IMG/VR virus record: IMGVR_UViG_2541047828_000003
Location: 1-26,402 of that record
Reading direction: 5' to 3' (one strand)
Source: a virus
Taxonomy: Duplodnaviria > Heunggongvirae > Uroviricota > Caudoviricetes
Length of the DNA stretch: 26,402 bases
Part shown: piece by piece, positions 24,001 through 26,402 of the stretch
How the letters are laid out: every line of letters begins with the position of its first letter
How positions within the stretch are numbered: position 1 is the stretch's first letter
Made by a program: the position numbers

Positions 24001-26402
24001 TTCGCAGGGTTTTGGCTACTTTCACGTGCGAACCTGCAGAATTGCAAAGGACAACTAAGTCCTCTGGCCAACTCCCGGTTTATGAGCGACACAGTCCGCC
24101 TGGCGCATCGTTTTCGTCGAGTGCGCCCATCAGCTTGTCCATGGACTATCCACCACTCGATATTAAAGCTAATCATTGGTTGCCAGCCCGCGAATCAAGT
24201 TTGTTCTGGATCCAAGCTTCAACCTCCTCAAGCGACCATCTAGCTGATCTACCAATTTTAACTGGCTGTGGAAACGTGCCCGTCTTAACCCATGAGTAGA
24301 TTGCCGTTTTCTTGAAGCCCGTTCTGAGCATAACTTCGCTTAATTTGATAAGGCGCATAGAGGCTCCTCTGCTTTAGATTAAGCATAGTGACAATCTGGC
24401 TTTGGCGGTATCCAAAAGCGAGGTATCCATGTTGGTATCCACCAAAACGCTGTTTACCAAAAAAGTTACCACCGGAACAGGACATTTTGAGCTGTAACTT
24501 AACACATAGCATATGGAGTTCACGCATAGACTTCACGCACAACGGCTCCGGCCAGTGAAGAATCACCCTGGCTGGCAATATAATGCCGATCACCATCAGA
24601 GGGGGATCCATGACACCACGAGAAATCGAGCTGCTGACCATTGCCAAGCTGGAGCATGACGGCCACCAGCTCAGCCCGGCAGAACTGCGGGAATTAAGGC
24701 GCCAGCTGGCAGAGGGCCCTGTAATAGCCAGGCGGTACCGCGAAATGATGACCAGCCCCGCATATCGCTGGAGCAAACCAGCGCCGCTCCGTGCGCGGTG
24801 AGCAGCACCTAACCAGCACTAGACAAGCCCTGTGCTGGTGGATGTCCCTCATAATTAGCGGTTTTTAAACAGCGTGTTGGTTCACGGCCTCTTTTTGTTG
24901 GTTCAAAAATGGGGTGTGTTGGTTCACTTTTTGCGAATAATTCTTTTAAAAACAATACTCTTTACAAATTGAACCAACTGAACCAACTGAACCAACACCT
25001 TTTTGCTTATCTATATAGTCTGAGAGGCAGAAATGATAAGGGACAGGAAAGCTGAAGATCTGGAGTCAAAAGGGCTATACCGGAGAGCTGCCGCACGATG
25101 GGCAGAAATCATGATGCTGGCAGATGGCGATAAAGAACGTGAACATGCAGCAAACAGACGCTCTGAATGTATCCGTAAGGCGGCACGCCAACCAGCAACT
25201 ACAGACAGATTCGGAGATTTAAGACAGGCAGTTAAGCGAACTCATTCGGCTCTTGGTATGGATGAGGAAGCGAGAGGGTACTTCAGGCGTTATCGCGATA
25301 AAGATTGCCAGAGACAGTAATGCTCTCTCTGTTTTGGCAAATTACCCCTCACTTTGAAGAGATCGGAGCTATAAAAATGGTGTTATCCGGCTTCCTCAAA
25401 TTGAGGTTTCCGAAAATATCAGCGGGTTAGCGATTAATCTGGCGAGTAATTAAACTGCGAAAATTTCGTAGGGGGTTACGAAAATTTCGTAGGTCTACTC
25501 ATGGTTTAGGCTTACTTTCCCGACATCCCCCAATGGGTGGGGGCGAAATAATCAATGGGTTAGGCTTACCTCCCCCATTTCCTGCATTGCAGGTTTTCGA
25601 AAGAATCAATGGGTTAGGTCATCGTGCAAATTTGCACTCTGACAGCCAACGCAATTTCTCGTTGGCGGAAATATCAGGTATTTACTGAACGAACGGTCTA
25701 CCCGCCTGTTCAACTACCAGTTGTACATGGCTGCTTTATGTGCAAATGGTGGTGAGAGAAAATTGTTTGGGGGTACTTTTGGGGGTATCTTCAAAGATGT
25801 AATTGGAAAATATCTTTATATATCAATGTATTTTTATTGTTTGTTTTGTTCCTATTATCGCACCATTTAAATCAATAAGTTACCCCATATTTAAATACAC
25901 CACGTTTCCTCCTGTGCCGTATTTGTGCCATTGTAACCCTGGCAATTCATCAAAATACTGTTCTGACATCAGGCAATGCAGGTGCAGACATTTAAGCCAA
26001 TTGCTGCCGCCATTCCTTGACGTGGTCAATCAGGGCGCGGAGCTTTGGTGCAATATTGCGACGCTGTGGGAAATACAGATAGAAGCCTGGAAATTGTGGA
26101 AGAAAGTCATCAAGCAGCGATACAAGCTTACCGCTTTCAATATATGGCCTGAAAGTTTCCTGAGTGGCAATTGTTATTCCTTCACCGACAAGAGCCAGCT
26201 GCAACATCAGACGCAGATCATTAGTCGTAATCTGCGGTTCAATCGCAAGGTCGAAAGTTCTCCCGTTTTCTTCAAATGGCCAGCGATAAGGCGCAACCTC
26301 CGGGGACTGACGCCAGCCGATACACTTATGGGTATTTCCCCCGGAGGCGAGAAAGCGCTCTCCACGCCCGGCCGCAAGGATCAGGACGACGGGGGCAGGC
26401 AT

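What the first reader, a model, noticed from the sequence alone, without database searches (positions are those of the whole stretch)
25450..25867. Right island junction carries palindromic and direct repeat families plus the matching att repeats
CGAAAATTTCGTAGG occurs twice, one copy within a perfect TACGAAAATTTCGTA palindrome; ATCAATGGGTTAGG occurs twice with further CAATGGGT variants; then come the 21-bp GGGGGTA motif (25768-25788) and the core-like repeat (25850-25867). This density of short repeats is what an integrase/excisionase/host-factor binding arm looks like.
Basis: seen in the sequence. Interest (0 to 1): 0.45.

Follow-up and report, generated by a model that had tools for sequence, protein, structure and literature searches.

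The report
Phage Roi-operator copies beside satellite att site
The repeats at the right end of this E. coli phage-satellite island are two separate things: a real integrase arm (att core plus GGGGGTA repeats), and next to it an apparently undescribed array of short copies of the palindrome-plus-IHF site found inside helper-phage roi/rha regulator genes, which probably binds helper Roi proteins rather than the island's integrase.

Summary
The window holds an EcCIMP1-like phage-inducible chromosomal island (int 8261-9475 to PerC 25033-25320) inserted at a thrW-derived att site.

The finding merges two modules.

- **Integrase arm (25768-25867).** It has the 18-nt core and two TGGGGGTA repeats. 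These recur on the left arm, at the same spacing as in EcCIMP1. Islands at another att site carry different repeats instead.
- **Roi-like array (25372-25742).** Each of six units or so is a dyad followed 4-5 bp later by an IHF-consensus-like tail (GAAAnWATCAnnnnGTTAGG).
  - It occurs only on this arm.
  - Three satellite lineages at different att sites share it, in either orientation and with 2-7 units.
  - It is absent from the transfer-proficient EcCIMP1.
  - Each unit matches a site inside a different allele of phage roi/rha/antirepressor genes. U1 is 44/44 nt identical to the roi of Kapi1, EcCIMP1's helper.
  - In those genes the dyad varies by symmetric double changes and tracks the predicted recognition helix.

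Best reading: a multi-specificity array of Roi-operator and IHF sites, acting as a decoy or sensor for helper Roi. Binding and its effect are untested.

The parts
8079..8097 (+). attL core, TCCTATTATCGGCACCATT. It is a remnant of the thrW 3' end; there is no intact tRNA in the window.
   Evidence: 8078-8095 is identical to the last 18 nt of thrW of strain MP1.
8209..8259 (.). Left-arm candidate arm-type integrase sites: TGGGGGTA at 8209 and 8221 (+) and 8252 (-). The last overlaps the int start codon region.
   Evidence: The spacing to the core is the same as in EcCIMP1.
8261..9475 (+). Tyrosine integrase with an Arm-DNA-bind_3 N-terminal domain.
   Evidence: Pfam; annotation of the identical genome.
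25372..25432 (+). Unit U1: dyad CCTCAAATTGAGG (25394-25406) plus tail GAAAATATCAGCGGGTTA (25412-25429).
   Evidence: 25372-25415 is 44/44 nt identical to the 5' coding part of roi allele A, found in Kapi1, HK620, CUS-3, H-19B and Stx phages.
25456..25491 (+). Two copies of the dyad T(G/A)CGAAAATTTCGTA, at 25456-25470 and 25477-25491.
   Evidence: 25471-25491 is 21/21 nt identical to a site inside a second class of Roi/antirepressor genes (PhiR12_3; 58 Stx2a phages). Salmonella ST44 'Roi' has TACGAAAATTTCGTA, reading YENFV.
25497..25516 (+). Degenerate tail ACTCATGGTTTAGGCTTAC, following the second CGAAAATTTCG dyad.
   Evidence: Read from the sequence. It resembles the AATCAATGGGTTAGGCTTAC of U2.
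25525..25565 (+). Unit U2: dyad CCCCCAatgggTGGGGG plus tail GAAATAATCAATGGGTTAGG, a perfect match to the IHF consensus AATCAATGGGTTA.
   Evidence: It is most similar to the site in VT2-Sakai/Stx2_499-type roi, CCCCCAATGG(T/G)GG.
25579..25619 (+). Unit U3: dyad CCTGCATTGCAGG plus ttttc plus GAAAGAATCAATGGGTTAGG, a perfect match to the IHF consensus.
   Evidence: CP-1639 roi has the same dyad and spacer; HK022/JEP4 roi has CCTGCATTGCAG.
25625..25636 (+). Dyad TGCAAATTTGCA, conserved in sister islands. No phage counterpart was found.
25645..25684 (+). Unit U4: dyad GCCAACGcaatttctCGTTGGC plus degenerate tail GGAAATATCAGGTATTTA.
   Evidence: Homologous units in other satellites carry ACGCAAttTTGCGT.
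25685..25742 (+). The rest of the shared satellite-end module. It is conserved in islands at the dinD site; its function is unknown.
   Evidence: Homology with L004/L005 ends at about 25742.
25768..25788 (+). Right-arm candidate arm-type integrase sites, TGGGGGTA twice as direct repeats.
   Evidence: They sit 61 nt from the core, as in EcCIMP1.
25850..25867 (+). attR core, TCCTATTATCGCACCATT.
   Evidence: PMC11773190 gives the EcCIMP1 core as TCCTATTATC.

Best explanation
The right junction holds two independent modules.

**A. Integrase arm (25768-25867).** This is the genuine int-distal arm of attP/attR for the island's P4-type integrase. It has two TGGGGGTA arm-type sites 61 nt from an 18-nt thrW-derived core.

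**B. Accessory array (25372-25742).** It contains at least six operator-like units.

- Each unit is a short dyad, usually followed 4-5 bp later by an IHF-consensus site.
- Each unit copies the site inside a different allele of helper-phage roi/rha-type DNA-binding antirepressor genes.
- From memory of Clerget & Boccard 1996, that intragenic site is where HK022 Roi binds its own gene next to an IHF site.

**Proposed mechanism (inferred, not shown).** When a lambdoid or P22-like helper expresses Roi, Roi dimers and host IHF load onto the satellite array. Because the array carries several dyad specificities, it would respond to many helper alleles. The array would then act as a decoy or sensor. 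It would draw Roi and IHF away from the phage's autoregulatory site, or mark the satellite DNA for a helper-dependent step.

**Shown here:** sequence identity to the phage sites, dyad covariation, helix-dyad concordance, and distribution across satellites.

**Inferred:** protein binding and any consequence of it.
For: 1. **Identity to phage sites.** U1 is 44/44 nt identical to the roi site of Kapi1, HK620 and H-19B. Kapi1 is the proven helper of EcCIMP1.
2. **Every unit type tested lands in a phage ORF.** Each one hits a phage ORF annotated Roi, Rha, DNA-binding or antirepressor (sequences). The exceptions are U4's window-form dyad and TGCAAATTTGCA, which found no counterpart (see evidence against).
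3. **Dyads are non-random.** 63% of 27 distinct satellite units have a perfect dyad of at least 6 bp ending 4-5 nt before the tail, against 3.8% of random 28-mers.
4. **Covariation.**
   - In 26 centred units and alleles, 92.9% of dyad positions pair. Shuffled partners give 69.5% and slid partners at most 45.5%.
   - All 6 pairs show double changes.
   - The outer CC.C.A/T.G.GG positions are mostly constant, and positions 6 and 8 are the most variable. That pattern fits a family of dimeric DNA-binding proteins, not a generic hairpin.
5. **Selection at the DNA level.** Within roi/rha ORFs the dyads are kept by codon choice. Eight of the 11 distinct alleles give per-allele P of 0.0003-0.06; Stx2_499 (0.15), APSE-7 (0.19), VT2-Sakai (0.95) and phage 2851 (0.84) are not significant.
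6. **Helix-dyad concordance.** The predicted recognition helix tracks the dyad class across mosaic gene backgrounds:
   - VKRT with CCTCAA
   - VKQS with CCCCCA
   - VK(I/V)S with CCTGCA
   - RPDNVKRT with CCTCCA
   - RPDSVKRT with CCACAG
7. **IHF-like tails.** The tails match WATCAANNNNTTR. Only 4 strict + strand matches exist in 26.4 kb, and three lie within 25550-25870.
8. **Distribution.** The array sits at the int-distal end of three satellite lineages at four att sites.
9. **The arm behaves differently.** TGGGGGTA and the core are specific to this integrase and att site and keep their spacing.
Against: - No binding data exist for any of these sequences.
- The claim that Roi binds a site inside roi next to an IHF site rests on my memory of the Clerget & Boccard 1996 abstract. 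The paper could not be opened. It does not tell me that the dyad is the exact Roi site.
- Helix and dyad lie only about 45 nt apart, so their concordance could partly be linkage.
- The centred alignment used was built by picking each unit's best dyad, which inflates the paired fraction.
- EcCIMP1 works without the array, so any function is accessory.
- Some units are degenerate: the U4 tail, the tail after the CGAAAATTTCG dyad, and CCTGCATTGTAGG in L004.
- U4's window-form dyad and TGCAAATTTGCA found no phage counterpart.
- In one satellite (L019) the array abuts the att junction, so a contribution of the IHF-like sites to recombination cannot be excluded.
Confidence: 0.55

Rival explanations
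1. One reading: the whole 25450-25867 stretch is one recombination arm. The palindromes and the ATCAATGGGTTAGG repeats would be binding sites for the island's integrase, its AlpA/excisionase and IHF, and together they would shape the intasome.
For: - The array lies within 170-480 nt of the core, on the arm that in lambda carries IHF and Xis sites (established knowledge).
- The tails match the IHF consensus.
- In L019 a tail directly abuts the att junction at the phoQ stop codon.
- The integrase has an arm-binding domain.
Against: - There are no array motifs on the left arm.
- The same units occur in satellites at other att sites that carry other arm repeats, TTAACTACACC and GTGTACATAA.
- Their orientation relative to the island is inverted in L002, L006 and L009 compared with the window.
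- Unit number varies from 2 to 7, and distance to the core from 0 to about 800 nt.
- EcCIMP1 has a near-identical integrase and the same TGGGGGTA-to-core geometry. It lacks the array yet excises and transfers.
Confidence: 0.12
2. Neutral debris. The units are scars of repeated illegitimate or homologous exchanges between satellites and the roi/rha genes of co-infecting phages. They would accumulate in the dispensable cargo zone at the island end and have no function of their own.
For: - Copy number varies through unit-to-unit recombination; L004 is a U1/U3 fusion.
- EcCIMP1 lacks them.
- Some units are degenerate.
- A further roi-like remnant exists elsewhere in the island, at 17526-17599.
Against: - Only the roughly 40-nt dyad-plus-tail portion of the genes is kept, and within an array the units always point the same way.
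- Satellite-specific unit variants still keep their dyads through compensatory changes.
- The same arrangement recurs at the same relative position in three unrelated satellite lineages. Parts of the region are found in 1317 of 5426 complete E. coli genomes.
Confidence: 0.2
3. An RNA-level element. The hairpins would act in a transcript, as terminators or insulators at the end of the island operon, or as a sense or antisense decoy RNA for roi mRNA.
For: - The dyads could fold as hairpins.
- Several are followed by TTT(T)C.
- In cf-PICI-type islands the units are antisense to the island operon, so read-through would give RNA complementary to roi mRNA.
Against: - No terminator-like or promoter-like sites were found in 24900-26100.
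- No Rfam family matches the region, even at E<=10.
- Unit orientation relative to island transcription flips between lineages.
- Variation is concentrated at two symmetric positions with constant outer positions, which is typical of protein operators rather than RNA stems.
Confidence: 0.06
4. A packaging signal. The array would be a cosB-like or pac-like site, with IHF sites plus terminase or Rpp binding sites, that directs the satellite into helper capsids.
For: - Lambda cosB contains an IHF site between the terminase-binding R sites (established knowledge).
- E. coli PICIs have an unusual, undefined cosB (PMC6739421).
- In classical PICIs a lambda cosN lies about 345 nt from the array.
Against: - The window has no cosN.
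- Its island type is mobilised by a P22-like headful phage.
- In classical PICIs the nearest cosN faces away from the array, so cosB would lie on the other side.
- EcCIMP1 is packaged without the array.
Confidence: 0.04
5. A small protein-coding repeat. The 51-codon ORF at 25533-25688 (MGGGEIINGLGLPPPFPALQVFERINGLG...) would encode a peptide with repeated Roi-like motifs.
For: - The U2-to-U3 spacing is 54 nt, which is in frame.
- The ORF reads in the roi frame.
Against: - The start codon lies inside a dyad, and I saw no ribosome-binding site by eye.
- U1 and U4 are out of frame: the spacings of 133 and 68 nt are not multiples of three.
- Unit number and frame are not conserved in sister islands.
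- The DNA dyads are conserved, not the peptide.
Confidence: 0.03

Closest known systems
Intragenic Roi-binding site with adjacent IHF site in the roi gene of coliphage HK022 (Clerget & Boccard 1996, J Bacteriol 178:4077). The reference is listed; its content is from my memory of the abstract.
   Same: - The sequence elements are the same. The HK022-type roi allele (JEP4 is 98.8% identical to HK022) has CCTGCATTGCAG followed by AATCAATGATTTA. Window U3 has CCTGCATTGCAGG followed by AATCAATGGGTTA.
- U1 is identical to the site of the Kapi1/HK620 allele.
   Different: - Here the sites are outside any roi gene and are non-coding.
- They are multiplied into an array that mixes several allele specificities.
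- They sit on a satellite that encodes no Rha-domain protein among the eight island proteins tested. The only antirepressor-like gene has an AntA domain.
- They cannot be autoregulatory.
EcCIMP1, a phage-inducible chromosomal island of E. coli MP1 (Pick et al. 2025, PMC11773190).
   Same: - The gene set and order are the same: int, alpA, antA/B, primase, P22-type ejection-protein homologues, alpA_1, perC.
- It uses the same thrW att core, TCCTATTATC.
- It has the same TGGGGGTA arm repeats at identical spacing.
   Different: - EcCIMP1 has other cargo after perC (a pRiA4b ORF-3 family gene and others) and no roi-like units.
- The window's island sits second in a tandem array, with no intact thrW beside it.
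Arm-type sites and IHF sites of lambda-type and P4-type attP arms.
   Same: - There are direct repeats near the core on both arms, and the integrase has an arm-binding domain.
- A/T-rich spacers hold IHF-consensus sequences.
   Different: Only TGGGGGTA and the core fit this description. The dyad-plus-tail array is not integrase-specific, not positioned reproducibly and not required.
Helper-regulator-responsive sites on satellite P4: P2 Ogr/P4 Delta sites at Psid and PLL, and P2 Cox activation of PLL (established knowledge).
   Same: The principle is the same: a satellite carries DNA sites recognised by a regulator encoded by its helper.
   Different: - The P4 sites lie at promoters and have a defined transcriptional output.
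- This array has no predicted promoter and lies at the island end.
- It combines several operator specificities, which suggests a decoy or a broad-range sensor.
RIP/BIME-1 repetitive elements of E. coli (REP palindromes flanking an IHF site).
   Same: The architecture is similar: a palindromic unit next to an IHF consensus, repeated in non-coding DNA.
   Different: - The palindromes here are roi-gene dyads, not REP sequences.
- In the loci examined, copies lie only in satellites and in phage roi/rha genes, not in chromosomal intergenic regions.
- REP similarity was not formally tested.

Membership tests
attP/attR recombination arm of a P4-type tyrosine integrase | Identical core repeats at both island ends that match the 3' end of the target tRNA. 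| tested here: met
   8079-8097 and 25850-25867 differ by one G. 8078-8095 equals the last 18 nt of thrW.
attP/attR recombination arm of a P4-type tyrosine integrase | The repeated arm motif is present on both arms, at fixed spacing, and is specific to the integrase and att site. | tested here: met
   This applies to TGGGGGTA only.
- All 5 copies lie on the two arms.
- The spacing is identical to EcCIMP1.
- Islands at the dinD site carry GTGTACATAA repeats instead.
attP/attR recombination arm of a P4-type tyrosine integrase | The same criterion, applied to the CGAAAATTTCG and ATCAATGGGTTAGG families. | tested here: not met
   - There is no copy on the left arm.
- The families are shared by satellites at four att sites, in either orientation, with variable number and distance.
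- They are absent from the functional EcCIMP1.
attP/attR recombination arm of a P4-type tyrosine integrase | Integrase, excisionase or AlpA physically binds the motifs. | not testable with these tools
   This needs a gel-shift (EMSA) or footprinting experiment.
IHF binding site | A match to the consensus WATCAANNNNTTR with an A-rich stretch upstream. | tested here: met
   - U2 and U3 match perfectly, at 25550 and 25604.
- U1 and U4 each have one mismatch.
- Only 4 strict matches occur on the + strand of the whole window.
IHF binding site | IHF binds and bends the DNA. | not testable with these tools
   No experimental data were available.
Roi/Rha intragenic operator plus IHF site | Sequence identity to the site inside phage roi/rha genes. 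| tested here: met
   - U1 is 44/44 nt identical to the Kapi1/HK620 allele.
- U3 has the same dyad and spacer as CP-1639.
- The CGAAAATTTCG dyad region is 21/21 nt identical to PhiR12_3 Roi.
Roi/Rha intragenic operator plus IHF site | Two-fold symmetry is maintained by compensatory changes and co-varies with the recognition helix. | tested here: met
   Caveats are linkage and the way the alignment was centred.
Roi/Rha intragenic operator plus IHF site | The site lies inside the ORF of the protein that binds it (autoregulation). | tested here: not met
   - The region has only ORFs of 51 aa or less.
- None of the eight island proteins tested has a Rha domain.
- These are therefore ectopic copies, not autoregulatory sites.
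Roi/Rha intragenic operator plus IHF site | Roi protein binds the dyad. | not testable with these tools
   The primary paper could not be opened, and no solved Rha-domain structure was found by sequence.
Lambda-type cos site | cosN (GGGCGGCGACCT) with cosB downstream of it. | tested here: not met
   - The window has no exact cosN; the only near matches (1-2 mismatches) lie at 11015 and 16376, inside genes.
- In classical PICIs the cosN is about 345 nt away and faces away from the array.
Known structured RNA families (Rfam 15) | A covariance-model match. | tested here: not met
   25250-26000 gave only two chance-level hits, at E=3.4 and 6.1.

The most novel reading that the evidence does not exclude
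The array may be how enterobacterial satellites detect or manipulate many different helpers through one conserved helper function. Each dyad would capture the Roi/Rha protein of one helper allele class, together with IHF. Roi loading on the excised or replicating satellite would then do one of two things. It could titrate Roi from the phage's own autoregulatory site and so re-time or cripple helper development. Or it could trigger a satellite step such as induction or excision. How E. coli PICIs sense their helpers is, to my knowledge, unresolved, and this would give a cis-acting, multi-specificity 'helper-regulator trap'.
Probability: 0.2. Interest if true: 0.85.

Novelty: new variant of a known kind. 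Interest (0 to 1): 0.62.

Why it matters
- **Annotation of island ends.** A dense patch of repeats next to an att site can be a separate accessory module rather than part of the integrase arm. Comparing islands with different integrases tells the two apart.
- **A possible satellite-helper interface.** Arrays of copies of helper regulator (Roi/Rha) operators with IHF sites occur in EcCIMP1-like islands, classical PICIs and capsid-forming PICI-like islands. Parts of the region occur in about a quarter of complete E. coli genomes. I found no paper describing them.
- **A testable specificity code.** The analysis gives recognition-helix class against dyad class for the poorly understood Rha/Roi family. 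It also gives simple experiments that could show how satellites sense or interfere with lambdoid and P22-like helpers, including Stx phages.

Tried and rejected
- **Two-unit pattern scan of one genome per species.** It found only an unrelated 51-nt tandem repeat in Ornithinibacillus. The arrays are therefore not present in species-representative genomes at that stringency.
- **The search for related loci with the Roi N-terminus.** It returned only alleles at least 97% identical, which was useless for diversity. I replaced it with tblastn 'spread' sampling and a dyad-plus-tail pattern scan.
- **Rfam.** Nothing matched the region. The window's only hits are isrK and C4 at 11933-12160.
- **Promoter and terminator scan.** None were found.
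- **cos hypothesis.** Rejected.
- **Array as a 'PerC gene plus array' module.** Rejected. The gene next to the array in cf-PICI-type islands is unrelated to PerC and has no Pfam match.
- **Binding by an island-encoded Rha protein.** Rejected. The island has only an AntA-domain protein, and other satellites that carry arrays lack an annotated antA/antB gene.
- **PDB sequence search with the Roi N-terminus.** No relative was found.
- **Clerget & Boccard 1996.** It could not be read. Three literature searches found nothing on Roi/IHF sites in satellites.
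Full report
**1. What the window is**

The window is 100% identical to the chromosome of E. coli Z0117EC0116. The island runs from a tyrosine integrase (8261-9475) to PerC (25033-25320). In between lie:
- an AlpA-like HTH gene;
- an AntA-domain protein;
- an 'ash' region holding the Rfam RNAs isrK and C4;
- a TOPRIM/DUF927 primase;
- DUF2824 and P22-type ejection-protein homologues.

After PerC come 670 nt of non-coding DNA and then the host yagP/paoD genes.

This gene set matches EcCIMP1, a PICI that Pick et al. 2025 showed to be excised and transduced only with the P22-like helper Kapi1. EcCIMP1 inserts at tRNA-Thr with the core TCCTATTATC (PMC11773190).

No tRNA lies in the window. 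The left core (8079-8097) is an 18-nt thrW 3' remnant, so this island sits behind another element in a tandem array.

**2. Check of the observation**

- TGGGGGTA occurs 5 times against 0.36 expected.
- The 20-mer GGGGGTACTTWTGGGGGTAT occurs twice against 0 expected.
- The tail motif GAAANWATCARNNRGTTA occurs 4 times in 25412-25684 against 0.5 expected in the whole window.

Each unit is a dyad whose sequence differs from unit to unit, followed by tt(c)GAAAnWATCAnnGGGTTAGG (family D1).

**3. Two modules, separated by comparison**

Sister EcCIMP1-like islands inserted next to dinD (L004, L005) share the window's sequence from PerC through the units, down to about 25742. After that point they diverge completely and carry their own tandem repeat, cGTGTACATAAgGGTGTACATAA.

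EcCIMP1 itself shows the opposite pattern. It shares the window's core and GGGGGTACTTTTGGGGGTAT. The spacing is exactly the same, 61 nt to the core on the right and 131 nt start-to-start on the left, although the 61-nt spacer has a different sequence. It has unrelated cargo in place of the units and contains none of them.

So 25768-25867 travels with the integrase and att site, and 25372-25742 travels independently of them. The integrase has the Arm-DNA-bind_3 domain, which fits TGGGGGTA being arm-type sites.

**4. The array is a satellite-end module, not an integrase arm**

The same units occur in several other settings:
- at the int-distal end of an island next to phoQ in EDL933 (L002), with HK97-type capsid, portal, HNH, terS and terL. 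I take it to be the cf-PICI EcCIEDL933; that name is from memory;
- in a classical PICI next to clpS (L006);
- in 13 IMG/VR contigs of 5-16 kb.

Those islands have other arm repeats, for example TTAACTACACC twice. In them the units sit on the strand opposite the island operon, which is inverted relative to the window.

Unit number ranges from 2 to 7. L004 is a clean U1/U3 fusion. The distance to the att junction ranges from 0 nt (L019) to about 800 nt (L006). The tail motif is absent from the window's left arm.

Parts of the region occur in 1317 of 5426 complete E. coli genomes.

A precisely built intasome arm is hard to square with these facts, or with EcCIMP1 being functional without the array.

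**5. Where the units come from**

BLAST of the region against phage genomes hits only ORFs annotated Roi, DNA-binding protein or antirepressor. Window 25372-25415 is 44/44 nt identical to the 5' coding part of the roi allele of Kapi1, HK620, CUS-3, H-19B and many Stx phages. There it reads ...KNGVIRLPQIEVSE... within the Phage_pRha domain.

Other units match the same codon positions of other alleles:

| Satellite unit | Phage counterpart |
|---|---|
| U2 | VT2-Sakai / Stx2_499 (CCCCCAATGGtGG / CCCCAATGGGG) |
| U3 | CP-1639 (identical CCTGCATTGCAGGttttcGAAA) and the HK022 allele (JEP4 is 98.8% identical to HK022; CCTGCATTGCAG + AATCAATGATTTA) |
| EDL933 CCACAGtCTGTGG unit | Stx1_132418 |
| EDL933 GCCAATGGC and TTCGCCgctGGCGAA units | Stx2_EH2201 (CGCCAATGGCG) |
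| EDL933 GGCGCAATTTTGCGC unit | a different Rha-like gene of P13374 |

It occurs in Salmonella phage ST44 'Roi', where it reads YENFV. As GGGTTACGAAAtTTTCGTAACCC it occurs in a second class of Roi/antirepressor genes in PhiR12_3 and 58 Stx2a phages; window 25471-25491 is 21/21 nt identical to that site.

**6. The dyad is selected at the DNA level and behaves like an operator**

- Of 27 distinct satellite units, 63% have a perfect dyad of at least 6 bp that ends 4-5 nt before the tail. Random 28-mers from the same loci reach this in 3.8% of cases.
- In 26 centred units and alleles, 92.9% of dyad cells pair. Shuffled partners give 69.5% and slid partners at most 45.5%. All six pairs show double changes.
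- Variation is concentrated at positions 6 and 8 and their symmetric partners, and the CC.C.A/T.G.GG frame is nearly constant. That pattern is what a family of dimeric DNA-binding proteins with diverged specificity would produce. An RNA stem would not be expected to vary that way.
- The centring step biases the paired fraction upward. The fixed offset from the independently defined tail does not depend on it.
- Within roi/rha ORFs the dyads are kept by codon choice. Eight of the 11 distinct alleles give per-allele P between 0.0003 and 0.06; four (Stx2_499, APSE-7, VT2-Sakai, phage 2851) are not significant. Combining the 11 by hand with Fisher's method gives roughly 2e-6.
- The predicted recognition helix, about 15 codons upstream, tracks the dyad class:
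  - KRHDNVKRT with CCTCAA;
  - SRHDKVKQS with CCCCCA;
  - VK(I/V)S with CCTGCA;
  - SRPDNVKRT with CCTCCA;
  - SRPDSVKRT with CCACAG.
- This concordance holds in genes whose N-terminal and downstream segments are otherwise shuffled. In the IMG/VR pattern scan all 58 hits in Rha context had 5-6 of 6 pairs. The chance hits, none in Rha context, had 3-4.

From memory of the abstract of Clerget & Boccard 1996 (cited; the paper could not be opened): HK022 Roi binds a site within its own gene, closely linked to an IHF site, and IHF stabilises that binding. The dyad plus WATCAANNNNTTR tail fits that description.

**7. Rivals tested**

- **RNA element.** Rfam gave no match in the region, no promoter-like or terminator-like sites were found, and unit orientation flips between lineages.
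- **Packaging site.** Lambda cosN is absent from the window. In classical PICIs it lies about 345 nt away and faces away from the array. EcCIMP1 is packaged without the array.
- **Coding.** Only ORFs of 51 aa or less exist in the region. The one that spans U2-U4 in the roi frame is not conserved.
- **Neutral debris.** I cannot exclude this. It is disfavoured because only the dyad-plus-tail part of the genes is retained, orientation within each array is uniform, dyads are kept by compensatory change, and the array recurs at the same relative place in three satellite lineages.

**8. Mechanism proposed**

- **Shown.** The array consists of ectopic copies of the intragenic dyad-plus-IHF-like sites of several roi/rha alleles. 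One of them is the exact site of the known helper type.
- **Inferred.** Helper Roi dimers and IHF bind the array. U1 and U3 are identical to the phage sites, so any protein that binds the phage site must also bind here. The satellite would then sequester Roi and IHF, or sense them. Mixing dyad classes would broaden the range of helpers it responds to.
- **Unknown.** The direction of the effect (interference, timing or induction) is not established. I put 0.55 on 'Roi/IHF binding-site array' and about 0.2 on it being a functional helper trap or sensor with a measurable phenotype.

**9. Novelty**

Already known:
- the att core and the EcCIMP1 family (PMC11773190);
- arm-type sites, as a concept;
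- a Roi site with an IHF site inside roi, reported in 1996.

I found no description of arrays of such sites in satellites, nor of the helix-dyad code. I therefore rate this a new variant of a known kind: satellite DNA carrying binding sites for a helper regulator, as P4 does for P2 Ogr and Cox.

Noticed in passing
window 17345-17480: Just after the primase gene, GTTGGTTCA occurs three times as direct repeats. TGAACCAAC occurs three times in inverted orientation, around an AT-rich stretch. This is probably the island's replication origin (ori iterons).
   Followed up: no
window 17526-17599: There are two more copies of the TACGA(A/G)A(T/C)TTTCGTA dyad. In frame they read ...HYEIFVVQKTGPEK..., which resembles the N-terminus of the second class of phage 'Roi' genes (ST44 NYENFVVGKTGHK; PhiR12_3 GYEIFVTPMD). 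This may be an unannotated gene remnant or the small ORF 17405-17656.
   Followed up: partly
window 11933-12160: The Rfam families isrK (69 bits) and C4 antisense RNA (81 bits) lie side by side inside the ORF annotated 'ash family protein'. This looks like a P4/P1-type RNA immunity module inside a PICI-like island.
   Followed up: no
window 1-8078: The DNA to the left of attL belongs to a different element (AAA ATPase and others). No intact thrW lies next to the island, so the island is the distal member of a tandem array at thrW.
   Followed up: partly
window 25870-25882: A strict IHF-consensus match, AATCAATAAGTTA, lies three bases past the attR core on the host side (yagP flank).
   Followed up: no
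L116 (phage CP-1639 roi) and L103 (Stx1_112808 roi): Both roi genes are disrupted exactly at the dyad/tail site. CP-1639 has an extra A in the GAAAAAAATCAA tail, giving a premature stop. Stx1_112808 has CCTTAAATTGAGG, which creates a TAA stop. The DNA site may outlive the ORF.
   Followed up: no
L009, L010, L011, L013, L017, L019, L020 (classical PICIs from IMG/VR): Each carries two exact lambda cosN sequences (GGGCGGCGACCT) in opposite orientation, about 770-880 nt apart, just inside the array. This fits the cos1/cos2 pair described for EcCICFT073.
   Followed up: partly
L019 8520-8545: In this PICI the first unit's tail directly abuts the phoQ stop codon, and its dyad is replaced by host sequence. 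The att crossover there appears to lie at the edge of a unit.
   Followed up: no
L002 5601-5625 and L006 8170-8200: TTAACTACACC occurs twice as direct repeats next to the att junction in two satellites at different integration sites (phoQ and clpS). These are candidate arm-type sites of another integrase family.
   Followed up: no
L110 (Pseudomonas phage Orimi01) and L111 (ECO95): The CCTCAAATTGAGG dyad sits at the same codons of Rha-domain genes as far away as a Pseudomonas phage. There it lacks the IHF-like tail.
   Followed up: no
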